Positions 2,641 through 16,094 of a stretch of DNA of 32,220 nt are shown here, one piece after another. A program made the position numbers and the translations under genes. The notes below the pieces were generated by a model, which saw nothing but the letters and a program-made list of their open reading frames with translations, ran no database searches and was not told the DNA's origin. The stretch lies in contig CAIPMZ010000066.1 in the NCBI GenBank assembly GCA_903866285.1, positions 1 to 32,220 of the forward strand, read 5' to 3'. Every line of letters starts with the position of its first letter. Within the stretch, counting starts at the first letter, position 1. The DNA comes from an uncultured bacterium. GTDB lineage: Bacteria > Patescibacteriota > Minisyncoccia > Moranbacterales > GWC2-37-73.

Positions 2641-3651
2641 ATGATTACCAATTCCGAAGAACAAATTGAAGATGTCTCCCTAGATAACACCCTCAGGCCG
2701 CAAAGGCTGTCGGAATATGTTGGCCAGGAAAAAATTCGCAAAAATTTGCAGATGTTTATTGACGCTGCCAAAAAAAGGGGTGAATCAATTGAGCATGTGC
2801 TTTTGTATGGACCGGCAGGGCTTGGCAAGACCACGCTGGCGCATATTATTGCCAATGAAATGGGCGTGAACATCAAAATCACTTCTGGGCCAGCTATTGA
2901 AAGAGTGGGCGACCTGGGCTCAATTTTGACGAACTTACAAGATGGCGATGTGCTTTTTATTGATGAAATTCATCGCCTCAACAAGTTGATCGAAGAAGTG
3001 CTTTATCCCGCCATGGAAGATTACAAATTGGATGTAATTATTGGGAAAGGCCCTTCGGCGCGAACTCTTCAACTTGATTTGCCAAAGTTTACTTTGATTG
3101 GTGCCACCACCAGATTGGGCAGCCTTTCCAATCCACTGCGCAATCGTTTCGGGGCAATTCACAGATTGGAATTTTACAATGATGAAGAAATGAAAAAAAT
3201 TATTTCTCGCAGTGGCAAAATTTTGGGCATTTCTCTGGATGAAAGTGGTTCTGGCGAAATTGCGCGCTCTAGTCGAAAAACTCCCCGCGTGGGTAACCGG
3301 ATGATTAAACGGGTGCGGGATTATGCTCAAATTAATGAGCATCCCGTAATTGATAGCGCTATCGCCAGAAAAGCCTTGGACATGATGGACGTGGATCACT
3401 TAGGCCTTGAACCGACTGACCGTTTTATTTTAGAAACCATTATCAAAAAATTCGGGGGCGGGCCAGTTGGAATTTCTACGATTGCGGCGGCCACTTCTGA
3501 GGAAATTGAAACAATTGAAGATGTTTACGAACCATTTTTAATTCAACTTGGCTTTCTAACGCGGACGCCCCGCGGGCGCGTCGTAACCGACAGCGGCTTT
3601 CTCCACATGGGTTATCCGGTGCCTGTCGAGAATCAGAATAAACTGCTATAA
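2641..3651 (+). CDS. ruvB: Holliday junction branch migration helicase RuvB
   Basis: [13 protein letters not shown], Walker [10 protein letters not shown], Walker [10 protein letters not shown] and sensor [16 protein letters not shown], at the full 336-aa RuvB length. Confidence 0.97.
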
Positions 3652-6968: not shown

Positions 6969-7445
6969 ATGCCAACCAAAAAACCAAAAGAAATCGTGAT
7001 TTTCCAAGCCAAAAATGGCGCAATTGAGCTGAAAGGTGATTTCAAAAAAGAAACTATCTGGGCAAGTCTGCAACAAATTGCGGATGTGTTTGGAGTGGAT
7101 AAGTCTGGTATTTCTAGGCATATTAAGAATGTTTTTAATTCTGAGGAGCTAAATGAAAAAGCAACTGTTGCAAAAATTGCAACAGCTCAAAAAGAGGGGG
7201 GTAGAAGCGTTATTCGTGAAATAGAGTATTTTAACTTGGATGTAATACTATCTGTCGGCTATAGAGTTAATTCAAAACAAGCCACAATTTTTCGTATTTG
7301 GGCAACCAAAGTTCTGCGTCAGCATATAACTAAGGGTTTTAGCATCAACCCAAAAGTAGTTAAACATAATTACGCTGAATTTCAACAGGCACTGGAGAAT
7401 ATCAAAAAACTCTTGCCAAGTTCTTTTACGTATTGCCGAAAGTAA
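6969..7445 (+). CDS. RhuM-family protein, probably C-terminally truncated
   Basis: IVIFQAKNGAIELK...TIWASLQQIADVFGVDKSGISRHIKNVF...YFNLDVILSVGYRVNSKQATIFRIWATKVLRQHITKGF matches the RhuM N-terminal half. At 158 aa it is about half the length I expect for this family. The ORF ends where the composition changes. Confidence 0.6.
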   Translation: MPTKKPKEIVIFQAKNGAIELKGDFKKETIWASLQQIADVFGVDKSGISRHIKNVFNSEELNEKATVAKIATAQKEGGRSVIREIEYFNLDVILSVGYRVNSKQATIFRIWATKVLRQHITKGFSINPKVVKHNYAEFQQALENIKKLLPSSFTYCRK

Positions 7446-7493
7446 CCCCAAGAATAAAGAGCGAATGATCCACTTGGTTTTGCAGTTGCTGAA

Positions 7494-7532
7494 GAAATAA
7501 AAAAACCTCTACAGAAAACCAATCTGTAGAGG
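7494..7532 (-). terminator. intrinsic terminator for the minus-strand island transcript
   Basis: On the minus strand: CCTCTACAG-ATTGGTTTT-CTGTAGAGG followed by TTTTTTTATTT. Confidence 0.75.
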
Positions 7533-7801
7533 TGATGCAAAGTTTTATTCAAGGATAACCCATTGTCGGTTCAGCGTCTCTGACCTGAATCGCACTGTTC
7601 TGGTTTTTCCATCTCTTGAAAGTGCGATTCTTCACGCTATCAAGGATGGGGCCGATTCGGAATTATTCACAAATCGGCCGGGTTGTATTAATTTCCCTTT
7701 AGTCTTTACGGCTCTAAGTTTTTCGATCCGCCTCGGGCGGATCTCCTTCATCCCTCATGTAAAGGGTTCTGTTGCTAATGGGTGAAGTAGCTCGTCCGGA
7801 A
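7533..7801 (-). other. structured, GC-rich non-coding 3' region of the island operon (candidate ncRNA)
   Basis: Three strong hairpins: GAATCGCACT/AGTGCGATTC (7587..7630, flanked by AGCGT/ACGCT), GGCCGATT/AATCGGCC (7650..7679) and GATCCGCC/GGCGGATC (7725..7743). No credible ORF. It ends at the terminator at 7494..7532. Confidence 0.4.
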
Positions 7802-8365
7802 TCACTCAAGCAAATACTTAAGAAGTGCTGCCCAGTTCTTAGCATGAACGAGACCCTCAAAACCACCTCCGTTCTCGAGGTAATTTTTGAGACGACCTGA
7901 TGAGAGGAGGTCGTCCGAGAGGTTGTCGGGAAGAAAATATCCAACCCAGTTTCTCGTATTAGAAAGAATCACCTTGCTTCCCTCGACCGTGAAGACCGTG
8001 GGTTTGCTTTCGCCGCCATTATTAAAAGCGTCGAAACATGCTGATGCTGGGTGGGCATGATGGTCGCTGTCGGTGAAGACGGCGACATATTTAGCCCGAG
8101 ATCGTACGGCAGCCAAGAGACCAATGAATATACCGACGGGCATTTCCTGTCCAGCAAAATGTTCTTTCATGTTGCCAAGCATCTGCGATGAGACTGGGAC
8201 AAGAAGATCTGTCAGTACTACATCAAAAGTTTCCTGAGAAAGAGCTTTCTGCGCCTCGTCATATGTTCCGACGACTGTCAGGTCATATGTACCAAACTGA
8301 GCTTCTGCGACTTTGCGATTATTTTCGTTGTCGTCGAAAACTAAAATTTTAAGATTCTTTTCCAT
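7802..8365 (-). CDS. CheY-like receiver (REC)-fold protein with an uncharacterised C-terminal extension
   Basis: KILVFDDNENNRK (acidic pair D11 D12), FDVVLTDLLVP (candidate phospho-acceptor D53) and YVAVFTDS (beta4 Thr). Strong SD (AAAGGGG, 7 nt upstream). More GC-rich than its neighbours. Confidence 0.6.
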   Translation of the reverse strand: MEKNLKILVFDDNENNRKVAEAQFGTYDLTVVGTYDEAQKALSQETFDVVLTDLLVPVSSQMLGNMKEHFAGQEMPVGIFIGLLAAVRSRAKYVAVFTDSDHHAHPASACFDAFNNGGESKPTVFTVEGSKVILSNTRNWVGYFLPDNLSDDLLSSGRLKNYLENGGGFEGLVHAKNWAALLKYLLE

Positions 8366-8397
8366 AATTTACCCCTTTTTGTTTTTGAATAGCTGTT

Positions 8398-8426
8398 TTT
8401 ATAAATAGATGCGAAGTTTGTATCAA
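8398..8426 (-). promoter_or_regulatory. possible promoter TTGATA-N17-TATAAA for the REC-like gene
   Basis: Minus-strand reading. The -35 is embedded in an ATCCTTGATA motif that recurs at 7639..7648 and, as a variant, at 7548..7557. Confidence 0.4.
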
Positions 8427-8451
8427 GGATAACTTCGCGAACCTTATTCTT

Positions 8452-8703
8452 CTAACAAACAATAGGGTTCATAATCATTTTTATTTCAAACAACCTATCG
8501 TTATGTCCCCTAAGAGAAGCATTTTTGGCATGAAGCTCCTCAATCTCTAGTTTCAAACTCTCTAGAGTTTCTACTTCTCCGCCTGTTTCATTAAGCAATT
8601 CATTGTTATATTCCCTAAGGGAAATATTTTGGGCGCGAAGTGTCTTGATCTCGAGCTTTAAGCTCGCTAGAGTTTCTTCGTGTCCGCATTTTTCTGTTTT
8701 CAT
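8452..8703 (-). CDS. small coiled-coil protein with two internal ~27-aa repeats
   Basis: ETLASLKLEIKTLRAQNISLREYNNEL and ETLESLKLEIEELHAKNASLRGHNDRL. A GGAGA SD precedes the ATG. Confidence 0.5.
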   Translation of the reverse strand: MKTEKCGHEETLASLKLEIKTLRAQNISLREYNNELLNETGGEVETLESLKLEIEELHAKNASLRGHNDRLFEIKMIMNPIVC

Positions 8704-8778
8704 TTTTTCTCCGTTGGTTGCGTTGTTAAATAACTTTTTGTTAGATGATAGGTTATTCCTAATTCATCTTAACGGGCA

Positions 8779-8807
8779 AGTATATACTATTTTTAGTATT
8801 TTATCAA
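8779..8807 (-). promoter_or_regulatory. possible promoter TTGATA-N17-TATACT for the coiled-coil gene
   Basis: Minus-strand reading, about 75 nt upstream of the ATG at 8703. Confidence 0.4.
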
Positions 8808-8876
8808 TGGTAATAAATACTAATATGCCTAAAAATAGCCTAAAAATAGGATAATTAAAATTATTTATCAAAAATG

Positions 8877-8905
8877 TTGACAAATAGAGTAGTTTTTGGT
8901 AGGAT
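8877..8905 (+). promoter_or_regulatory. promoter TTGACA-N17-TAGGAT (TrmB-family gene leader)
   Basis: Consensus -35, a 17-nt spacer ending in TGG, and a TAGGAT -10. Confidence 0.55.
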
Positions 8906-8921
8906 TAAGATAATCTAATTA

Positions 8922-9030
8922 TGTCATTCTGAGTGAATCCGCCAGCAGGCGGAGGAATCGAAGAATCTGGGCTCAGATCTTTCGACTTCGTTTCTCTGCT
9001 TAGGGCAGAGAAACTACGCTCAAGATGACA
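8922..9030 (+). mobile_element. MITE-like element family D variant (109 bp)
   Basis: Termini TGTCATTCTGAGTG ... CGCTCAAGATGACA are inverted repeats. Internal hairpins are CCGCCAGCAGGCGG and TCTCTGCTTAGGGCAGAGA. It lies between a predicted promoter and the TrmB-family gene. Confidence 0.65.
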
Positions 9031-9114
9031 AGAAGGGGATTTAGTAGGTAACTATAATCTAAAATCTAAAATCTAGAATTAAGAATCTAGAATCTAAAAT
9101 CTATTTAAAAACAT

Positions 9115-9858
9115 ATGGACAATGATTTGGTAAAACTTTTGGAAACGACGGGTTTCACGGAAAAAGAGGCTCAAGTATATTTGGCGTTGGTTGAGCTTGG
9201 AACGGGAAACGTGACGGATATTTCAAAAACAACCAAGCTCAAGCGCTCGATTATCTATGTAATCTTGGAAGGCTTAATGAAGAGAGGCTATGCTAGCGAA
9301 CTGCCGAATTTAAAAATCAATACCTATCAAGCCACTGATCCGACTGTCATCTTGTCGCAACTTAAAAATGTGGCGAAAAATTTCTCAGAAATGCTCCCAA
9401 TGATTCGCACACTCGGCAGTAAGGGTAAGAGCAGACCGAAAATCAGTTATTACGACACGAAAGAATCGATCTTGAAGGCTTGGGAGATTATGGGCAATGA
9501 GGATGATATTTTCTATATTTATTCCTGCGAAAGAAGCGAGCAACATTATCCTGGCATAACGGACAAATGGGCCAAGGGGTACAATAAAAAGCTTTATCCT
9601 TTGGGGAATCGACATTTAGTGCCGAATAATAAAAGCGAAGTTGAAATAGCTCAAAAGTTTTTGGCAGTCGGCGAAAGAGTGCGTCTGTTGGATGATTTGA
9701 ATGGCATTAATATGGACTTTACGCTTTTTTCAAACAAAATCTCCATTGTCTCACTCGAGGAGAATCCTTTTATCGTTGTCATAGAGTCTGAAGAGTTGGT
9801 CAAATCCATCCGCCCGATTTTCGAAATCGCCTGGGCAAAAGGGAGGGAGATAAAATAG
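9115..9858 (+). CDS. TrmB-family transcriptional regulator
   Basis: The N-terminus LLETTGFTEKEAQVYLALVELGTGNVTDISKTTKLKRSIIYVILEGLMKRGY is the canonical TrmB wHTH. The 247-aa length fits. Confidence 0.8.
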   Translation: MDNDLVKLLETTGFTEKEAQVYLALVELGTGNVTDISKTTKLKRSIIYVILEGLMKRGYASELPNLKINTYQATDPTVILSQLKNVAKNFSEMLPMIRTLGSKGKSRPKISYYDTKESILKAWEIMGNEDDIFYIYSCERSEQHYPGITDKWAKGYNKKLYPLGNRHLVPNNKSEVEIAQKFLAVGERVRLLDDLNGINMDFTLFSNKISIVSLEENPFIVVIESEELVKSIRPIFEIAWAKGREIK

Positions 9859-9906: not shown

Positions 9907-10482
9907 ATGGAAAAAGATTTGCAAAAATTGGCGCATACTTGGATAACGACAACACCCGAAAGTGTTGAGGTTGAGGGTGAATTTTATTGTCAGACTCGGG
10001 ATATTTTTCAGGCTAGGTTGGACAGAATGACGAATAATTTATTAAAAGAATTTGGCACTCAAGCAGAAAGAATATACATAGCATCTGCCATGGCAGGTGA
10101 GATTGGCAATAACTCCTTTGATCATAATTTGGGAAGCTGGACAGATGTTGCAGGAATTTTCTTTGGGTACGATTTTTTCGAAGATGAAATAAAAATAGTT
10201 TTGGCCGATAGGGGTAGGGGTGTTTTGGCGACACTCAGAGGCGTGAAGCCAGAACTTAAAAATGATATGGAGGGTTTGCAAACAGCTTTTACGGAAAGAA
10301 TTTCTGGCAGAGCGCCAGAAAGCAGAGGAAATGGCTTGAAATTTGTGAAAGAAAATTTGCAAATCAGAAAAATGCACCTCGTCTTTTTTTCTGGCAATGC
10401 CCAAGCTGATTTGAATGAAAAGATGGAAATAAAAGAAGTCACTGAGAGTGTGAGTGGATGCTTAGCTATTTTAACGTTGTAA
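9907..10482 (+). CDS. GHKL-superfamily ATPase, anti-sigma/serine-kinase-like
   Basis: N-box-like EIGNNSFDH, G1-like LADRGRGV and G2-like GNGLKF, in a 191-aa protein similar in size to RsbW/SpoIIAB. Confidence 0.62.
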   Translation: MEKDLQKLAHTWITTTPESVEVEGEFYCQTRDIFQARLDRMTNNLLKEFGTQAERIYIASAMAGEIGNNSFDHNLGSWTDVAGIFFGYDFFEDEIKIVLADRGRGVLATLRGVKPELKNDMEGLQTAFTERISGRAPESRGNGLKFVKENLQIRKMHLVFFSGNAQADLNEKMEIKEVTESVSGCLAILTL

Positions 10483-10510
10483 TAATAAAAACTTAGTTTG
10501 ATTAGAAAGT

Positions 10511-10556
10511 CGTTGGAGGTTCAAACTCCATTATGGAGGTTGAACCTCCTTGCAAC
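10511..10556. repeat. hairpin family A copy, long form
   Basis: CGTTGGAGGTTCAAACTCC-ATTAT-GGAGGTTGAACCTCCTTGCAAC, 29 nt downstream of the GHKL gene stop. Confidence 0.85.
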
Positions 10557-10587
10557 CGATAGCGACTTAAGTGATTTATAAAATTTT

Positions 10588-10869
10588 ATGAAAATTGAAA
10601 TCAAAAAGTTTGGGGAAATCTTAGTTTCTCGTCCCGCGGGAAGAGAAGCCTATTTAGCAATGTCCGCCTATCTTACAAAAGGAATCAGCAGTGGCGAGCC
10701 AATCGAAATTGATTTCGCTGGCGTAAAAGTACTGGCACCGTCTTGGGCAGATGAAGTTGTTACAAAAATTTTCCAAGAATTTGAAAATGTCAAACTTCTC
10801 AACACCGAAAACTCAACCGTGCAAGCCACGCTGGAAACCTTGAAAGAATATTCAGGGTTGAAAATTTAA
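10588..10869 (+). CDS. STAS-like DUF4325-type protein
   Basis: GEILVSRPAGREAY...IEIDFAGVKVLAPSWADEVV matches the DUF4325 pattern (sR..G...., .DF.gV....sSf.DE). Confidence 0.62.
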   Translation: MKIEIKKFGEILVSRPAGREAYLAMSAYLTKGISSGEPIEIDFAGVKVLAPSWADEVVTKIFQEFENVKLLNTENSTVQATLETLKEYSGLKI

Positions 10870-10900
10870 GTTTTACCATACAACTACATAAGGTAAAAAG
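10840..10900 (+). repeat. 61-bp direct repeat, left copy (last 10 codons of the DUF4325 gene plus hairpin C)
   Basis: Matches 12354..12414 at a constant offset of 1514 bp, with 4 mismatches. Confidence 0.9.
10873..10896. repeat. hairpin family C copy 1 (TTACCATA-CAACTACA-TAAGGTAA)
   Basis: Starts 4 nt after the DUF4325 gene stop. Identical to the copy at 12387. Confidence 0.85.
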
Positions 10901-10912
10901 TCCTAATGTTTT

Positions 10913-12271
10913 TTACAATTTCAAGAGCCATCTCTTCAAACTTACATAACGAACTTTCTTTCCGTCGTAATTTTCTTCTCCTTCAAAATCTTCGGTTATG
11001 ATAAGTCCACTTTTCAATTTAAATTCAGCCATTGCTTTAAGAAGCGCTTTTATTTCTCGCTTTTTTGTCTTGATGTCTGAAAGATTCCAACAAACTTGGA
11101 TCAATTCTTTAATAATAGTATCTTCCTTAATTACAAAATCAACTTCTTCATCAGCCAAACTTTTCCAATAATAGATCGCTAAAAATGGATTAAGGTAGGA
11201 CCTTCTTTTTAGTTCCAAAAAGACGATATTTTCTGCAAGTTTACCGAGATTAGGGCTAAAGCGAAAACCGATCGTATTGGCTATGCCAGTATCCACGGCG
11301 TAAACTTTTCGAGGGCTTTTCTCTTGTTCCTTGAATTTGTAGGAAAATCTTTTCAGGAAGAATACTAAATAGGAAGCTTCGAGATAACCAGAAAAACGCT
11401 CCGTGGTTTCGGCTGACATTTGCAAAAATTGTCCAGCGGAATTGAATGTTATGGGGGAGGAAATATTGCTGAGATAAAAATTTGCCAGACTTTTGAGTTT
11501 TTCAGTTTTTCTGATTTTATAACGCTTGATCAAGTCTCTGTTGACAGTATCATCATAATAATTAAGCAAGAGTTCCTTTTTCTTTTCTTCTTCTAAAACA
11601 ACTATCGGGAAAGAACCGAACTCTGAAAATTCTTGAAACAGTTTTTTTAGTTTTACATTTTTAGCTATTAAATCTGAATTATTTTTGATTGTTAAATTTT
11701 TAAAATTCAAAAATTCTTGAAATGATAGGGGCATTACGGTTACATCTAGGTGTCTGCCTGTCAGGACTGTGGCTAATTCGCCACTCAGGAGTTTTGAATT
11801 AGAGCCGGAAAGCACTAAATTAGCCTTAGCTAGTTCTTGAGTGGTCCTAACCCACTTTTCCCAGCGTGGAACTTCTTGTATTTCATCCAGAAAAAGATAA
11901 ATTGTTCCCTTGGGAGTTTGAGATTCTAAATAAGCGTTAAAAATTTGACTAAGTAGGTCAGTACTTAAATTGACAAAGCCTGGATCTTCAAAATTAACGA
12001 TGAGGATATTTTTTTTATCGACACCAGAAGCAATCAACTTTTTAGCTAGTTGTCGCATGAGAAAGGATTTTCCGCTTCGTCTAGCTCCCGTGATTATCTT
12101 AACCTGTTGACTGGGAAGCATTTTTTCAAGCACGGTTAAGTAGGAATTCCTTCTGATGCCAGAGGCTAAGTCTTTTTTCCAAAAATTCCAATCATTTAGA
12201 ATCCCCAAAAGGTTATTTTTCTCCATATAATTATTGTATATATGATAATTTGTTAATATTTCATCATACAT
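10913..12271 (-). CDS. AAA+ ATPase with C-terminal DUF4143 (PD-(D/E)xK-like) domain, COG1373 type
   Basis: Walker A GARRSGKS, Walker B IYLFLDEIQ and C-terminal EEVDFVIKE...IQVCW. The predicted promoter at 12274..12302 ends 2 nt before the 12271 ATG, so the true start may be the ATG at 12226 (MEKNNLLGILNDWNFW). Confidence 0.85.
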   Translation of the reverse strand: MYDEILTNYHIYNNYMEKNNLLGILNDWNFWKKDLASGIRRNSYLTVLEKMLPSQQVKIITGARRSGKSFLMRQLAKKLIASGVDKKNILIVNFEDPGFVNLSTDLLSQIFNAYLESQTPKGTIYLFLDEIQEVPRWEKWVRTTQELAKANLVLSGSNSKLLSGELATVLTGRHLDVTVMPLSFQEFLNFKNLTIKNNSDLIAKNVKLKKLFQEFSEFGSFPIVVLEEEKKKELLLNYYDDTVNRDLIKRYKIRKTEKLKSLANFYLSNISSPITFNSAGQFLQMSAETTERFSGYLEASYLVFFLKRFSYKFKEQEKSPRKVYAVDTGIANTIGFRFSPNLGKLAENIVFLELKRRSYLNPFLAIYYWKSLADEEVDFVIKEDTIIKELIQVCWNLSDIKTKKREIKALLKAMAEFKLKSGLIITEDFEGEENYDGKKVRYVSLKRWLLKL

Positions 12272-12273
12272 AC

Positions 12274-12302
12274 ATTATATATGTGATAAAATGAGAAGTC
12301 AA
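12274..12302 (-). promoter_or_regulatory. promoter TTGACT-N17-TATAAT internal to the ATPase cassette
   Basis: Read on the minus strand. The -10 ends 2 nt before the ORF's first ATG, implying a leaderless mRNA or use of the downstream ATG at 12226. Confidence 0.55.
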
Positions 12303-12353
12303 GAATTTGAAAATATATGTGAAAATATGGTTTAATTTAGGCTTTTTCTGACT

Positions 12354-12414
12354 TTGAAGGAATATTTAGGGTTGAAAATTTAAGCGTTACCATACAACTA
12401 CATAAGGTAAAAAG
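12354..12414 (+). repeat. 61-bp direct repeat, right copy (orphan gene 3' end)
   Basis: Would still read LKEYLGLKI-stop, against LKEYSGLKI-stop in the intact gene. No homology upstream of 12354. Confidence 0.9.
12387..12410. repeat. hairpin family C copy 2
   Basis: Identical 24-mer to 10873..10896, and part of the 61-bp direct repeat. Confidence 0.85.
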
Positions 12415-12747: not shown

Positions 12748-14721
12748 ATGTATAAAAAAATAAAGCAACCATGGGAATTCAATTTTAATGTTTCGGATGC
12801 TGGAGTTTACATGATCAAAGTTTCTGCTGTGTGTCAAAATGGTAAATTTCTCGGATTATTTGGAGGAGAAGATTTGAGGGTGGAAATTGATGAGCTTAAA
12901 TTGAGGGAAATTCCTTTAGGAAATAAACCACAGTATTTTGATATTCCCTCAGCTTGGAATGGCTCAGATTTAAAGGGAACAGAAAAAACAAGTGTGTTTA
13001 TTTTGAGGTTGACTGCGGGAAAACATACTATAAAATTTATTCCGAAAAGAGGAGCTGAGCTATTAAGTGAGACGCAGATCAATAAGTTAGATATTGGTAA
13101 CTCATTGAACGTGCTGAAAGACATTCAATCATCAGAAAAAGATCGTCAATCCTGGGTTACTGTTGTGGTTGTTGATTTTCCAGTTAATTTTCTTGATGTG
13201 GAAGTTACTTGTAAAAAGAGAAATGCCTTTGATAGTGATGATATTAAGCTTGTGATTGATGGAGAAATTCAAAAAAATTCCAAGTCTAGCTGGTGGGGCA
13301 AAAACTGGTTTTGGCAAGGAAGGGATCTTCAAGGAAAAACCCAATCGAATCGGTTTTATCTTGGTCTAGTAAAAGGAATCCATTATATTGAACTTTGGGC
13401 AGACAGGAAACCTTTTTTGAATAAACTTGACTTAAATATTTTTGAAAATAATAATAATCAAGATGAAAAAAATAACATCCCAGTTGGGCCGTATGAGAAT
13501 AAAGGACCGCTTGGCAATAGTGACTATAATCGCTACGATGGGATAATTGAGGAGGTCGTCAACAAGTGGAACGAAGAATTTTTACGCGATAAATATCCAG
13601 TAGAAAAACCACTTGATCCAAACTTGGTGAAGGCGATTATTTATCGTGAAAGCAAAATGGGATATTATCCTGGTGGAGAAATTAATGTCATGCAGGTTGG
13701 AAATCCAGGCGATCCATCATTGAAAACGCTTAACGGAGAATTGACTGAATATTGGATGCAGAATGGCACAGAAAAGAAACTTGATTATAATGGCAAAGCA
13801 AATGCTGATACTCCATACGAAAGCATTTACTGGGGTATCAGGTGGCTATATCATAAAGCACAAGGAATAAGCGGTGGGAAAAGATACTGGAAAAATTGGA
13901 AGGAGGCAGTGCAAGCCTATGGACCTGGCCCTGCGGAATATGCTGATAATATCTGGCTTATTTATACTGAGGGTCTTGATAAATCAAATCCTAAGAAAAG
14001 TATAAAATTGTGGTCGTTTATTTTTATTGCTCCACTTATTTTTGGCTTACATGGTTTTTTCAATAATCCTGAAAAAATAATAGATCAAAACAGTTTTATT
14101 AAAAATAAAATATTAAATGAGAATACAACTAATTCAGTTGAATTAAATAATGTTGAGGTTATTTTTTCAGAAAGCGATCCAAAATTATTTTTTGCTATTT
14201 TGGAATGGGAAAAAGATTGGTGGGAAAATTTAAAAATAGGCAAGCTAGAAAATGACAATAATATTAAATGGTTGGCGATAGACAACCCAATAAAACAGCA
14301 ATATATTTTAAGCGCAAAATTCATATATCTGAAAGGTTTTGCAGATCCTATTTTAGAAATATATGGCAAAACGCATGTTGGAAATGGTTCACTATATCTA
14401 TATAAAATTGTTAGCAATCAGGCAGAACTACTTTTGGAAACTCAGGCAATTGATTCTAAAAATGAACTTAGCACTTCGCCCGATAATTATAAGCAATATG
14501 GATATTGGCAGTGCGATGAGGTTTTCAGAGATGGAAAATTGAAAAGCGAATATGCGGATATAAATAAAGATGGTGTTGCTGAAGTTGTGCTAAGCGGTGT
14601 TTCCGACGTTATTTGTGAAGATAATTTAGGGACAGAAAAGAAAGAAGTGGTCGTGCAAACAAATGAAATTAAAAAGGTTTTTTCTTGGAACGGGGAAAAA
14701 TATGAAGAAACTCTAAAATAA
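12748..14721 (+). CDS. large protein with two tandem beta-sandwich-like repeats, an SLT-type lytic transglycosylase motif, one internal TM helix and a C-terminal domain
   Basis: LVKAIIYRESKMG...INVMQVGNPGD...YWGIRWLY resembles the SLT E-S...MQ...Y motifs. TM helix LWSFIFIAPLIFGLHGFF. The C-terminus has an FG-GAP-like DINKDGVAEVVLSG. Confidence 0.6.
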   Translation: MYKKIKQPWEFNFNVSDAGVYMIKVSAVCQNGKFLGLFGGEDLRVEIDELKLREIPLGNKPQYFDIPSAWNGSDLKGTEKTSVFILRLTAGKHTIKFIPKRGAELLSETQINKLDIGNSLNVLKDIQSSEKDRQSWVTVVVVDFPVNFLDVEVTCKKRNAFDSDDIKLVIDGEIQKNSKSSWWGKNWFWQGRDLQGKTQSNRFYLGLVKGIHYIELWADRKPFLNKLDLNIFENNNNQDEKNNIPVGPYENKGPLGNSDYNRYDGIIEEVVNKWNEEFLRDKYPVEKPLDPNLVKAIIYRESKMGYYPGGEINVMQVGNPGDPSLKTLNGELTEYWMQNGTEKKLDYNGKANADTPYESIYWGIRWLYHKAQGISGGKRYWKNWKEAVQAYGPGPAEYADNIWLIYTEGLDKSNPKKSIKLWSFIFIAPLIFGLHGFFNNPEKIIDQNSFIKNKILNENTTNSVELNNVEVIFSESDPKLFFAILEWEKDWWENLKIGKLENDNNIKWLAIDNPIKQQYILSAKFIYLKGFADPILEIYGKTHVGNGSLYLYKIVSNQAELLLETQAIDSKNELSTSPDNYKQYGYWQCDEVFRDGKLKSEYADINKDGVAEVVLSGVSDVICEDNLGTEKKEVVVQTNEIKKVFSWNGEKYEETLK

Positions 14722-15065: not shown

Positions 15066-15782
15066 ATGAGCGGACATTCACATTGGGCGGGAATTAAACA
15101 GCGGAAAGGCGTTAATGACGCCAAGCGGGCGAAAGTCTTTACGAGGCACGGCCGGCTTATTACGATTGCGGCTAAAGAAGGTGGCGGCAAGCCAGAGATG
15201 AATTTTAAATTGCAGATGGCGATTGATAGCGCGCGGTATATGAATATGCCGAAGGAAACGATTGAACGGGCGATTAAGAAAGGTACAGGCGAACTAAAAG
15301 ATGGCGCGGAAATCGAAGAAATTATTTATGAAGGTTATGGCCCGGGTAACGTGGCGATGCTAATTAAGACCGCCACCGACAATCGCAATCGCACTGGTAG
15401 TGAAATCCGTAGTGTCCTTACGAAAGCCGGCGGCAAGCCGGCTAGCGAGGGCGGAGTTAAATTTATGTTTAAACTAGTTGGCAGTATCGCGGTGGCAGTT
15501 GAGGGTAAAACAGCAGATGACTTGGAAATGCTAGCCATTGAAGCTGGCGCCGAGGATATGACCAGTGAAGAAGAAATTTTCGTGGTTTATACTAAGGTTG
15601 AAGATTTAAAAACCGTTAAAGAAAATCTGGAAAAAGCCGGCCTGAAAATCGAAGGCGCCGAGCTAGTCTACGTACCCCTCCAAAAAACCGAGCTAACTGA
15701 AGACTTTAGGATTGAATACGAAAAACTCCTGGAGAAATTGGATGAGCATGAGGATGTGCAGGAAGTATACGACAATTTATAA
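15066..15782 (+). CDS. yebC: YebC/PmpR-family transcriptional regulator
   Basis: MSGHSHWAGIKQRKG...DAKRAKVFTR...YEGYGPGNVA...TDNRNRT are hallmark YebC motifs. Confidence 0.95.
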   Translation: MSGHSHWAGIKQRKGVNDAKRAKVFTRHGRLITIAAKEGGGKPEMNFKLQMAIDSARYMNMPKETIERAIKKGTGELKDGAEIEEIIYEGYGPGNVAMLIKTATDNRNRTGSEIRSVLTKAGGKPASEGGVKFMFKLVGSIAVAVEGKTADDLEMLAIEAGAEDMTSEEEIFVVYTKVEDLKTVKENLEKAGLKIEGAELVYVPLQKTELTEDFRIEYEKLLEKLDEHEDVQEVYDNL

Positions 15783-16094
15783 TCTTGGGGATTACGAATT
15801 ATAATTTTCAATTTTCAATTCACAATTTTCATTGAATTTTTAATGTCTTAATTTTCAAAATTGCATTTCTGTTTTTGATCATTGAGTCATCGAGATTTTA
15901 TTGGAAATTGAAAATTGGTCATTGGAAATTCCGAGAACCTAATCTTTGATTGTTAAAAACTAATTTGAAATTTGAAATTTTAAATTTTAAATCAAATCTT
16001 AATTCTAAAATGTTTGAAATATTAAAAATTTAGTCATTAAAAATTTATTAAAAATTTATTAAAAATTGAAAATTCCCCTAAACCCCTTAGGGTT
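15783..16094. repeat. mosaic low-complexity repeat block (family E) filling the yebC-ruvC spacer
   Basis: Short-period A/T-rich units (ATTTTCA, GAAATTT, AAAATTTATT) and GATTACGAAT and GGAAATTGAAAATTGG modules that recur elsewhere in the window. Confidence 0.8.

What the first reader, a model, noticed from the sequence alone, without database searches (positions are those of the whole stretch)
7446..8870. Compositionally foreign two-gene island (coiled-coil protein plus atypical REC-like protein) inserted next to a truncated rhuM
The RhuM-family ORF stops at about half the expected length at 7445. From there to about 8870 the DNA is visibly more GC-rich than its surroundings. Both genes on the minus strand have clear Shine-Dalgarno sequences (GGAGA, AAAGGGG), whereas most genes in the window have none. 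Both have TTGATA-N17 promoters, and the unit ends in its own strong terminator. The 187-aa protein has the REC signature residues (DD at 11-12, D53 in FDVVLTDLLVP, T in VAVFTDS) but no DNA-binding or enzymatic output domain that I recognise. Instead it has a His-rich segment (DSDHHAHP) and a ~70-aa tail. Its partner is a two-repeat coiled-coil protein. There is no histidine kinase nearby. This looks like a horizontally acquired module of unknown function, possibly a phage- or defence-related switch.
Basis: partly seen in the sequence, partly recalled or inferred. Interest (0 to 1): 0.65.

Follow-up and report, generated by a model that had tools for sequence, protein, structure and literature searches.

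The report
Conserved orphan receiver gene in swap-prone slot
The GC-rich gene is not foreign DNA but a member of a large, undescribed family of stand-alone receiver (CheY-like) proteins with a histidine cluster, found across ultra-small (CPR) bacteria beside a TrmB-type regulator; here it sits in a slot where related genomes carry an unrelated gene, and the neighbouring rhuM was broken by a separate internal deletion.

Summary
Most of the raw observations hold. There is a GC bump, two Shine-Dalgarno sites, a strong terminator, REC signature residues, a two-repeat coiled coil and a half-length RhuM ORF. The "two-gene foreign island that truncated rhuM" reading does not hold.

- **Composition:** the GC bump covers only 7608-8365 (REC-like gene plus 3' non-coding DNA). 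The coiled-coil gene is at background. The REC gene (GC 0.465) matches the core genes of this genome (RuvB, YebC, RuvA, RuvC).
- **Family:** the 187-aa protein belongs to a Patescibacteria-wide family (182 clusters at 50% identity with E<=1e-30). The receiver residues D11/D12, D53, T98 and K176 are conserved, as is an HHxHP cluster, and there is a ~60-aa insertion. High GC and an SD are traits of the whole family.
- **Partner:** the recurrent neighbour is the divergent TrmBL2-like regulator (9115-9858), not the coiled coil.
- **Relatives:** close relatives keep the synteny but carry an unrelated 163-aa gene in the REC slot and, independently, another gene in the coiled-coil slot. The slots are bounded by conserved non-coding elements. 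Synonymous divergence shows recent recombinational exchange.
- **rhuM:** it lost codons 151-303 by internal deletion. Its last 22 codons and stop survive at 7432-7500.

The function (a phospho- or metal-dependent switch acting on the regulator) is inferred, not shown.

The parts
6969..7419 (+). rhuM, first 150 codons. 96% amino-acid identity to the full-length 326-aa RhuM+Fic gene at the same position in relatives.
7420..7431 (+). Deletion junction inside rhuM. About 12 nt of filler replace codons 151-303. The reading frame shifts, so the ORF stops at 7445.
7432..7500 (+). Out-of-frame remnant of the last 22 codons and stop of rhuM (IAESNPKNKERMIHLVLQLLKK*).
7505..7533 (-). Intrinsic-terminator-like hairpin (11 pairs) followed by a T run at 7504-7495. 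It ends the minus-strand transcription unit.
7534..7559 (-). P': a partial second copy (85% identity) of the P element. It lacks the 5' arm of the hairpin.
7563..7607 (-). X element (CAGGTCAGAGACGCTGAACCGACAA core). It is shared with L046 and L041, and more weakly with L001, in other gene contexts.
7608..7684 (-). H2 element: a GC-rich hairpin (GGCCGA...TCGGCC, one compensatory pair among relatives) plus a conserved 45-nt tail. It follows either the REC gene or the unrelated 163/165-aa gene in relatives.
7685..7801 (-). Structured, GC-rich 3' region specific to the REC cassette (includes the hairpin GATCCGCCCGAGGCGGATC). Shared only with L001. No Rfam match.
7802..8365 (-). 187-aa stand-alone atypical receiver (REC-like) protein with an HHxHP cluster and a ~60-aa insertion before beta5.
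8379..8445 (-). P element: conserved 5' non-coding block with the hairpin GCGAAGTT-N12-AACTTCGC (8411-8438). In other genomes it is followed directly by a type III hammerhead ribozyme. The ribozyme core is absent here.
8452..8703 (-). 83-aa two-repeat coiled-coil protein. It is lineage-specific and occupies a second, independently variable slot.
8704..8932 (-). Promoter region of the minus-strand unit (TTGATA-N17-TATACT at 8807-8779). 89% identical to relatives whichever gene follows.
9115..9858 (+). TrmBL2-like regulator (winged helix plus PLD-fold C-terminal domain). It is the conserved divergent neighbour of REC-like genes across CPR bacteria.

Best explanation
**What is shown**
- The 187-aa gene (7802-8365, minus strand) encodes a member of a large, uncharacterised, Patescibacteria-wide family of single-domain receiver proteins.
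- The family keeps the complete phospho-acceptor set of CheY-type receivers: DD after beta1, Asp after beta3, Thr after beta4 and Lys after beta5.
- It adds a nearly invariant T-D-x-x-H-H-x-H-P-A-S motif in the beta4-alpha4 loop, next to the phosphorylation pocket, and a ~60-residue beta-rich insertion before beta5.
- The gene is typically encoded divergently from a TrmBL2-like DNA-binding protein, as it is here.
- The gene occupies one of several recombination-prone slots between core genes. The slot is bounded by conserved non-coding elements (P on the 5' side, H2 on the 3' side).
- Close relatives carry an unrelated 163/165-aa gene in this slot.
- The coiled-coil gene sits in a second, independent slot.
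- rhuM next door was inactivated by its own internal deletion.
- High GC, high GC3 and a strong Shine-Dalgarno site are traits of the gene family, not marks of a foreign island.

**What is inferred**
- The protein acts as a stand-alone switch, like CheY, Spo0F, DivK or FixT.
- It would be phosphorylated on D53 by a distant kinase or a small-molecule donor, and possibly gated by a metal bound to the His cluster.
- It would act by protein-protein contact, most likely on the TrmBL2-like regulator.

The confidence of 0.6 is for the whole statement. I put the descriptive and evolutionary part at about 0.85 and the inferred mechanism at about 0.35.
For: **Family and fold**
- 262 homologues at 43-95% identity, from CPR phyla wherever the source names an organism.
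- 182 clusters at 50% identity with E<=1e-30.
- AlphaFold model with pLDDT 92. The best Foldseek PDB hits are receiver domains (probability 1.0, E from 1.6e-3).
- A profile search of the PDB hits receiver domains (2e-6).
- hhalign puts D11/D12 on CheY D12/D13 and D53 on CheY D57.
- Across 100 cluster representatives K176 and W178 are invariant. D11, D12, D53, P57, T98, H102, H103, H105, P106, S108 and D112 are at least 90% conserved.
- One relative fuses a canonical receiver to the N-terminus. Two relatives carry C-terminal coiled coils.

**Partner**
- A TrmB-family gene lies within 3 kb in 17 of 36 loci, nearly always divergent.
- TrmB is the only strongly recurrent Pfam family among 150 neighbouring proteins (17 members). 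No kinase family appears in the 25 listed.
- The window's copy matches TrmBL2 over its full length (Foldseek 7e-13).

**Family traits**
- The gene is GC-richer than its flanks in 33 of 34 loci, and the excess is limited to the coding sequence.
- GC3 is 0.62 against 0.45 in neighbouring genes.
- An SD is present in 26 of 32 loci, against 17-31% of neighbouring genes.
- Within the window its GC and GC3 equal those of RuvB, YebC, RuvA and RuvC.

**Slots**.

**rhuM deletion**.
Against: - No experiment or transcript data exist; no RNA runs hold the stretch.
- The Pfam receiver model matches only residues 7-57 and stays below its cut-off (18.9 against 30.2 bits).
- T98 and K176 are equated with CheY T87 and K109 from the predicted secondary structure and sequence pattern, not from a residue-level superposition.
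- No kinase is linked to the family, so phosphorylation may not occur.
- The TrmB-type neighbour is missing in about half of the loci.
- Pairwise distances of the REC and TrmB proteins do not co-vary beyond close pairs (Spearman 0.09).
- The metal-binding role of the His cluster is a guess from residue chemistry.
- The family-wide GC3 excess (up to 0.81 against 0.30) is larger than expression bias usually gives. It could mean frequent lateral transfer after all.
Confidence: 0.6

Rival explanations
1. One reading: a horizontally acquired two-gene module (coiled coil plus REC-like, 7446-8870) inserted beside rhuM and truncated it. It might be a phage- or defence-related switch.
For: - The REC gene is replaced by an unrelated gene in the closest syntenic relatives.
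- Both the REC and coiled-coil segments are far less diverged from L001 at synonymous sites than the adjacent TrmB gene: 0.12 and 0/24 against 0.43.
- The surroundings are rich in accessory or defence-type genes: RhuM/Fic and AAA_14/DUF4143, which matches PADLOC PDC-S01.
Against: - The two genes assort independently among relatives.
- GC is raised only in the REC part and equals that of the core genes.
- rhuM keeps its own 3' end and was cut by an internal deletion.
- There is no integrase, tRNA or target duplication.
- The conserved P motif has no match in the viral contigs. The PADLOC hit is confined to the N-terminal REC half.
- The REC family is CPR-wide and usually sits beside a TrmB-type gene.
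Confidence: 0.12
2. The REC-like protein is an enzyme, not a switch. The acidic pocket plus the His triad (D11, D12, D53, D99, H102, H103, H105, D112) would form a metal site for phosphoester hydrolysis or phosphotransfer on a receiver scaffold.
For: - The density of invariant Asp and His residues around the beta1, beta3 and beta4 loop ends.
- The order DD ... D ... DHH resembles the motif order of DHH phosphoesterases (my own recollection, not tested).
- Weak structural hits to phage proteins named cyclic-phosphate processing Receiver domain proteins.
- HD-domain proteins occur among the neighbours in 5 cases.
Against: - The top 50 Foldseek hits are overwhelmingly receiver domains. No DHH, HD or phosphatase fold appears among them.
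- The invariant Lys after the last strand and the Thr after beta4 fit a receiver.
- No substrate-binding second domain is present.
Confidence: 0.2
3. It is a pseudo-receiver. The Asp pocket is structural only, and the protein senses a metal or redox state through the His/Cys cluster, as the Fe-S-binding receiver FixT does, without being phosphorylated.
For: - No kinase family appears among the 25 most frequent Pfam families in the neighbours of 33 loci.
- The His cluster is as conserved as the Asp pocket.
- There is a precedent for a metal-cluster-binding single-domain receiver (title and abstract of PMC7078487, found).
Against: - All five phospho-chemistry residues are kept at 90% or more over 100 divergent clusters. 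That is unusual for pseudo-receivers.
- C110 is not conserved in distant members.
- A relative with a canonical receiver fused upstream suggests a phosphorelay context.
Confidence: 0.15
4. The slot genes (REC-like, the 163-aa acidic protein, the coiled coil, the 75-aa and 79-aa proteins) are interchangeable cargo of a small-gene cassette system. The conserved RNA elements (P hairpin, hammerhead, H2, X) would process or mobilise the cassettes. The REC-like gene would then matter here as cargo rather than as a partner of the regulator.
For: - The non-coding elements are 80-94% identical between genomes whose neighbouring LTD/PKD gene is only 65-73% identical.
- P is followed by five different downstream contents.
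- A type III hammerhead lies directly 3' of P in three loci.
- The mosaic identity pattern includes a breakpoint inside the REC gene.
Against: - No recombinase or integrase is nearby. No attC-like consensus was seen by eye.
- Outside this clade the REC-like gene is found without these elements (blastn of the 3' region against 32 loci gave nothing).
- Plain homologous recombination in conserved regulatory DNA explains the same pattern.
Confidence: 0.2

Closest known systems
Single-domain response regulators (CheY, Spo0F, DivK, CpdR)
   Same: - Stand-alone (beta-alpha)5 receiver fold.
- DD, D, T and K phospho-acceptor residues.
- No output domain, so action would be by protein-protein contact.
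   Different: - A ~60-aa insertion between alpha4 and beta5.
- An invariant HHxHP cluster after the conserved Thr.
- The Pfam model matches only the first half, below its cut-off.
- No linked kinase.
- Restricted to CPR bacteria.
FixT, an Fe-S-binding single-domain receiver of Caulobacter (PMC7078487)
   Same: A stand-alone receiver that carries an extra metal or cofactor site and modulates a signalling partner.
   Different: FixT uses Cys ligands for an Fe-S cluster and works inside a known two-component system. Here the candidate ligands are His/Asp, and no binding has been shown.
TrmBL2 / TrmB family (the partner gene, 9115-9858)
   Same: - Winged-helix TrmB domain (Pfam 5.5e-14).
- Full-length structural match to TrmBL2 (7e-13).
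- PLD-fold C-terminal domain.
   Different: It is bacterial (CPR) rather than archaeal. Its pairing with a receiver gene has not been described, as far as the searches show.
RhuM/Fic (Doc-like) proteins
   Same: The N-terminal 150 residues are 96% identical to a 326-aa RhuM+Fic protein in syntenic relatives.
   Different: In the window the gene is a pseudogene with an internal deletion and a frameshift.
Integron gene cassettes / variable small-gene arrays
   Same: One gene per slot, same orientation, and conserved structured elements at the slot boundaries.
   Different: - No integrase.
- No attC consensus.
- The slots have their own promoter-like DNA.
- Exchange looks like homologous recombination.

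Membership tests
Response-regulator receiver domain (CheY-like, PF00072) | (beta-alpha)5 flavodoxin-like fold | tested here: met
   AlphaFold model with pLDDT 92. Nearly all of the 50 best Foldseek PDB hits are receiver domains (TM on target 0.45-0.62 for the single-domain hits). The core is interrupted by an insertion.
Response-regulator receiver domain (CheY-like, PF00072) | Acidic pair after beta1 and phospho-acceptor Asp after beta3 | tested here: met
   D11/D12 and D53 align with CheY D12/D13 and D57. They are at least 90% conserved in 100 representatives.
Response-regulator receiver domain (CheY-like, PF00072) | Thr/Ser after beta4 and Lys after beta5 | tested here: inconclusive
   T98 (at least 90% conserved) ends predicted strand 93-97. 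Invariant K176 ends strand 173-176, before the last helix. The equivalence is inferred from topology, not from a residue-level superposition.
Response-regulator receiver domain (CheY-like, PF00072) | Score above the curated Pfam threshold | tested here: not met
   18.9 bits against a cut-off of 30.2. Only residues 7-57 match. A few relatives pass.
Response-regulator receiver domain (CheY-like, PF00072) | Cognate histidine kinase or phosphodonor; actual phosphorylation | not testable with these tools
   No kinase gene in the window. No kinase family among the 25 most frequent Pfam families in 150 neighbouring proteins from 33 loci. Biochemistry is needed.
Horizontally acquired genomic island | Composition unlike the host genome | tested here: not met
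   GC 0.465 and GC3 0.457 equal RuvB, YebC, RuvA and RuvC. 5.5% of equal-sized windows are as GC-rich or richer. The coiled-coil gene is at background.
Horizontally acquired genomic island | Mobility genes, tRNA target, flanking target duplication | tested here: not met
   No tRNA and no integrase or transposase. The only flanking repeat is a 26-nt partial copy of a regulatory hairpin.
Horizontally acquired genomic island | Presence or absence among close relatives, and lower divergence than the flanks | tested here: met
   This holds for the REC gene alone. It is replaced by a 163/165-aa gene in L037 and L042-L046. Fourfold-site divergence from L001 is 0.12 against 0.43 in TrmB.
Horizontally acquired genomic island | The two genes behave as one unit | tested here: not met
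   L046 has the coiled coil with the 165-aa gene. L042-L045 have a 75-aa gene with the 163-aa gene. L001 has an extra 79-aa gene between the two.
TrmB family regulator (partner gene) | TrmB winged-helix domain plus C-terminal effector-type domain | tested here: met
   Pfam TrmB 5.5e-14. Model with pLDDT 82. Foldseek matches TrmBL2 at 7e-13 and Nuc (PLD fold) at 6e-6.
Type III hammerhead ribozyme (RF00008) | Catalytic core CUGAUGA...GAAA with three helices | tested here: not met
   Absent from the window. Present directly after the P element in L038 (47.1 bits against a gathering score of 48.5, E 1.6e-9). The same sequence occurs in L039 and L041.

The most novel reading that the evidence does not exclude
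The REC-like family would be a CPR-specific, highly expressed signalling hub. It would be a receiver whose phosphorylation pocket is fused to a His-ligated metal site, controlling a chromatin-like TrmBL2 regulator without a dedicated kinase. Its genes would also be exchanged between lineages as single-gene cassettes bounded by structured RNA elements (a hairpin plus a hammerhead ribozyme). That would explain why the gene is both unusually conserved and compositionally out of step with nearly every host genome.
Probability: 0.15. Interest if true: 0.8.

Novelty: new variant of a known kind. Interest (0 to 1): 0.5.

Why it matters
- CPR/Patescibacteria have few recognisable signalling systems and very many proteins of unknown function.
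- This family averages 52% identity across CPR classes, while its neighbouring regulator averages 25%.
- It has its own ribosome-binding site in genomes that mostly lack them, and it uses GC-rich codons. It is therefore probably abundant and important.
- It offers a tractable entry point (a small soluble protein with a confident model) into regulation in these organisms, and into how receiver domains can be rebuilt around a metal site.
- The locus also shows how small-gene slots are reshuffled between core genes in very small genomes.
- It is a caution that a local GC rise and a strong SD need not mean foreign DNA.

Tried and rejected
- **Rfam.** The whole window at gathering scores and 7300-9150 at E<=10 gave no credible family for the structured 3' region. 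Six related loci at gathering scores gave nothing.
- **tRNA/tmRNA.** None found.
- **3' region in other loci.** blastn of the 3' non-coding region against 32 distant REC loci found no conservation beyond close relatives. A family-wide "downstream RNA" is rejected.
- **Curated protein libraries.** NCBIfam, PHROGs and PADLOC gave only sub-threshold N-terminal receiver matches for the REC-like protein.
- **Transcripts.** No RNA runs hold the stretch.
- **Co-divergence of REC and TrmB.** Pearson 0.57 is driven by two close pairs and Spearman is 0.09, so the test is inconclusive.
- **ATCCTTGAWA as an operator.** 12 matches against 7.8 expected, so it is not significant on its own.
- **Exact look-ups.** Look-ups of the coiled-coil and TrmB proteins gave no new contexts.
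- **DHH-phosphoesterase reading.** Considered from the motif order, but not supported by the fold search.
- **191-aa neighbour (9907-10482).** Its motifs looked to me like a GHKL-type ATPase, but Pfam, NCBIfam and PDB sequence searches gave nothing.
- **Integron/attC reading.** No integrase and no consensus.
- **Literature.** Nothing found on this family or on hammerheads in Patescibacteria.
Full report
**Setting**

The window is a chromosome piece of a CPR/Patescibacteria bacterium. Core genes are spread through it: RuvB 2641-3651, YebC 15066-15782, RuvC, RuvA, a class A PBP, FemAB and a Mur ligase. The closest named relatives of its TrmB-type gene are Moranbacteria MAGs. The runs that hold the stretch are lake, freshwater and marine metagenomes.

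On the minus strand, the finding interval contains an 83-aa gene (8452-8703), a 187-aa gene (7802-8365), about 270 nt of non-coding DNA and a hairpin terminator (7533-7505). It is flanked on the plus strand by a 158-aa RhuM-family ORF (6969-7445) and a 247-aa TrmB-type gene (9115-9858).

**Check of the observation**

- **GC.** GC rises to 0.43-0.49 only between about 7400 and 8400. By segment:

| Segment | Coordinates | GC |
|---|---|---|
| REC coding sequence | 7802-8365 | 0.465 |
| REC-specific 3' region | 7685-7801 | 0.470 |
| H2 element | 7608-7684 | 0.481 |
| P region | 8366-8451 | 0.302 |
| Coiled-coil gene | 8452-8703 | 0.377 |
| Window | 1-32220 | 0.394 |

- **The bump is real but modest.** 5.5% of equal-sized windows are as GC-rich or richer. 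It excludes the coiled-coil gene.
- **The gene is composed like the core genes of this genome**:

| Gene | GC | GC3 |
|---|---|---|
| REC-like | 0.465 | 0.457 |
| RuvB | 0.451 | 0.451 |
| YebC | 0.464 | 0.477 |
| RuvA | 0.449 | 0.463 |
| RuvC | 0.481 | 0.569 |

  The AT-rich neighbours are the accessory-looking genes: the RhuM fragment (0.363), AAA_14/DUF4143 (0.345) and a 657-aa hypothetical gene (0.342).
- **Shine-Dalgarno sites.** The two sites are there, and they are rare among the 25 genes of the window.
- **Terminator and promoters.** The terminator is confirmed. One of the two proposed promoters passes the scan.

**The 187-aa protein**

- *Homologues.* It has 262 homologues at 43-95% identity, from CPR phyla wherever a source names the organism. 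An exhaustive profile search found 182 clusters (50% identity level) at E<=1e-30. Almost all are stand-alone proteins of 160-250 aa.
- *Curated libraries.* No curated library covers the family. Pfam Response_reg matches only residues 7-57 at 18.9 bits (cut-off 30.2). NCBIfam, PHROGs and PADLOC give the same partial, sub-threshold matches.
- *Fold.* The AlphaFold model is confident (pLDDT 92). Its best matches in the PDB and in the viral structure library are receiver domains. A profile search of PDB sequences also hits receiver domains (2e-6).
- *Alignment with CheY.* hhalign places D11/D12 on CheY D12/D13, and D53 with P57 on CheY D57 with P61.
- *Conservation.* In 100 cluster representatives (34-64% identity) K176 and W178 are invariant. 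D11, D12, D53, P57, T98, H102, H103, H105, P106, S108 and D112 are at least 90% conserved.
- *Topology.* In the model, T98 ends strand 93-97 and K176 ends strand 173-176, just before the last helix. That is the topology of the receiver Thr and Lys. This equivalence is inferred. Residues 114-172 form an extra beta-rich insertion.
- *Fusions.* One relative carries a canonical receiver at its N-terminus. Two others have a C-terminal coiled coil.
- *Reading.* The protein is a receiver whose phosphorylation pocket is intact and whose alpha4-beta5 region is rebuilt around a His cluster. Whether it is phosphorylated, and whether the cluster binds a metal, is not shown.

**What travels with it**

I examined 36 loci: 32 from one genome per species and the rest from metagenomes.

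- The gene immediately upstream is different almost everywhere. The coiled coil occurs only in the closest relatives.
- The only recurrent neighbour is a TrmB-type gene. It is found in 17 loci, nearly always upstream and divergent, and directly adjacent in six.
- A Pfam scan of 150 neighbouring proteins confirmed this: TrmB 17, methyltransferases 6, HD 5. No kinase family appears among the 25 most frequent.
- The window's TrmB-type protein models as a winged helix plus a PLD-fold domain. It matches TrmBL2 over its full length (7e-13).
- The REC proteins average 52% pairwise identity and the partners 25%.

**Composition and SD are family traits**

- The REC-like gene is GC-richer than its flanks in 33 of 34 loci. 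The mean excess is 9.4 points, against +0.7 (sd 4.3) for other genes.
- The excess begins and ends with the coding sequence.
- About half of the excess comes from synonymous codon choice. GC3 is 0.62 against 0.45, with both C and G raised.
- An SD precedes the gene in 26 of 32 loci, against 17-31% of neighbouring genes (p=4e-7).
They fit a strongly expressed, strongly constrained gene. The extreme cases (GC3 0.81 against 0.30) remain unexplained and leave room for repeated transfer.

**The locus in close relatives**

Genomes whose TrmB-type protein is 85-87% identical keep the same order: bPH, LTD/PKD, RhuM, small genes, TrmB, a 191-aa gene, DUF4325, YebC, RuvC. Compared with them:

| Position | Window | Relatives |
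|---|---|---|
| REC slot (7685-8356) | REC coding sequence plus 117 nt | Unrelated acidic 163/165-aa gene (GC 0.384) in L037 and L042-L046 |
| Coiled-coil slot | 83-aa coiled coil | Homologous coiled coil in L046 and L001; unrelated 75-aa gene in L042-L045 |
| Between the two slots | Nothing | L001 has an extra 79-aa RNA-polymerase alpha-CTD-like gene |

The slots therefore vary independently.

The slot boundaries are conserved non-coding blocks:

- **P** (8379-8445, with the hairpin GCGAAGTT-N12-AACTTCGC).
- **H2** (7608-7684, a GC-rich hairpin with one compensatory pair plus a 45-nt tail).
- **X** (7563-7607).

These blocks are 80-94% identical between genomes whose neighbouring LTD/PKD gene is only 65-73% identical. 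A scan of metagenome contigs for the P motif found it in front of still other contents. In three loci it is followed directly by a type III hammerhead ribozyme (47.1 bits against a gathering score of 48.5, E 1.6e-9). The window lacks the ribozyme core.

**Recent exchange**

- Between the window and L001, identity is 99-100% over 7700-8199, 79% over 8200-8299, about 96% over the coiled-coil gene and about 84% over the TrmB gene.
- Divergence at fourfold sites is 0.12 (REC), 0/24 (coiled coil) and 0.43 (TrmB). The differences from TrmB are significant (p about 1e-5).
- Parts of this region have therefore been exchanged recently by recombination, with a breakpoint inside the REC gene.

**rhuM**

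- The relatives carry a 326-aa RhuM+Fic gene at this position. The window matches it at 96% amino-acid identity for exactly 150 residues.
- Then come about 12 nt of filler. After that, 7432-7500 reads IAESNPKNKERMIHLVLQLLKK*, which is the last 22 codons and stop of the same gene, out of frame.
- The gene thus lost codons 151-303 by internal deletion. Its original 3' end still abuts the terminator. Nothing was inserted into it, and 7446-7500 belongs to rhuM.
- L037 keeps only the same 3' remnant.
- Short RhuM ORFs that end just after the same KxLLP motif are very common in CPR genomes. This looks like a recurrent break point.

**The downstream RNA**

- The minus-strand 3' region folds well (z=-4.8), but it is a mosaic. 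It consists of a REC-specific part (7685-7801, shared only with L001), the H2 and X blocks (shared with loci that lack the REC gene), a partial copy of P, and the terminator.
- It matches no Rfam family.
- It is not conserved downstream of REC-like genes elsewhere.
- No transcript data could be found.

**Verdict**

- The object is ordinary in kind (a receiver-domain protein) but belongs to an undescribed, widespread and well-conserved CPR family with unusual features.
- The locus is a neat example of slot-wise gene replacement.
- The island interpretation is mostly wrong in its boundaries, its logic (composition) and its link to rhuM. It is right that the DNA has moved recently.
- The functional model, a phospho- or metal-dependent single-domain switch acting on the TrmBL2-like regulator, rests on conserved residues, fold and gene neighbourhood only.

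Noticed in passing
L038:2456-2510 (also L039 and L041, directly 3' of the P motif); the corresponding place in the window is 8379-8410: A complete type III hammerhead ribozyme (RF00008, 47.1 bits against a gathering score of 48.5, E 1.6e-9) follows the conserved P hairpin in three CPR metagenome contigs. The window, L001 and L037 have ATTTATAA in place of the ribozyme core. A full-text search found no paper that mentions both hammerhead ribozymes and Patescibacteria.
   Followed up: partly
window 10901-12350 and 12748-14721: The AAA_14/DUF4143 ATPase gene (PADLOC PDC-S01, 2e-118) and a 657-aa hypothetical gene are insertions relative to the syntenic relatives L042-L045, where DUF4325 is followed directly by YebC. 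About 64 nt (10837-10900) are repeated at 12351-12414 and flank the first insertion.
   Followed up: partly
window 8926-9079: A multi-copy element (gtcattctgagtgaatc...cgaagaatc...) has word depth 45 against about 7.5 for its surroundings in the source metagenome. Several variant contigs exist. It is a dispersed repeat of this genome or community. Its only Rfam hit is noise (Chlorobi-RRM, E 0.26).
   Followed up: no
window 9045-9103: Tandem 14-nt repeats (CTAAAATCTAGAAT-like, 3-4 copies) lie just upstream of the TrmBL2-like gene. They may be an operator array.
   Followed up: no
window 9907-10869: A 191-aa gene and a STAS-like DUF4325 gene follow the TrmBL2-like gene. Over this stretch the DNA is 93% identical to L042, against 82% over TrmB. 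By eye the 191-aa protein has N-box and G-box-like motifs of GHKL ATPases, but Pfam, NCBIfam and PDB sequence searches found nothing. Only PHROG 3364 (unknown function) matches, at 7e-8.
   Followed up: partly
REC-like genes in L004-L035 (for example L034:1003-1641 and L014:4001-4621): There is a family-wide excess of GC3 over the host (0.62 against 0.45 on average, up to 0.81 against 0.30). It is confined to the coding sequence, and both G3 and C3 are raised. The cause is unresolved: expression bias or repeated transfer.
   Followed up: partly
window 6969-7500; proteins P0267-P0386: More than half of the best RhuM homologues in CPR are 150-200 aa long. They end within about 10 residues after the same KxLLP motif, each with a different tail. 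This suggests a recurrent deletion or recombination point at the boundary between the RhuM domain and the Fic domain.
   Followed up: partly
L001:2883-3122: A free-standing 79-aa protein made of an RNA polymerase alpha C-terminal domain (PF03118, 34.4 bits) is inserted between the coiled-coil and REC genes in the closest REC-bearing relative.
   Followed up: no
window 8200-8299: A 100-nt patch inside the REC gene is only 79% identical to L001, while the adjoining 500 nt are 99-100% identical. This marks an intragenic recombination breakpoint.
   Followed up: partly
L042:8268-8633 and L046:7880-8236, compared with window 15783-16094: Relatives carry a 118-121-aa bAvd / 23S_rRNA_IVP-like gene between YebC and RuvC. 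The window has only about 310 nt there.
   Followed up: no
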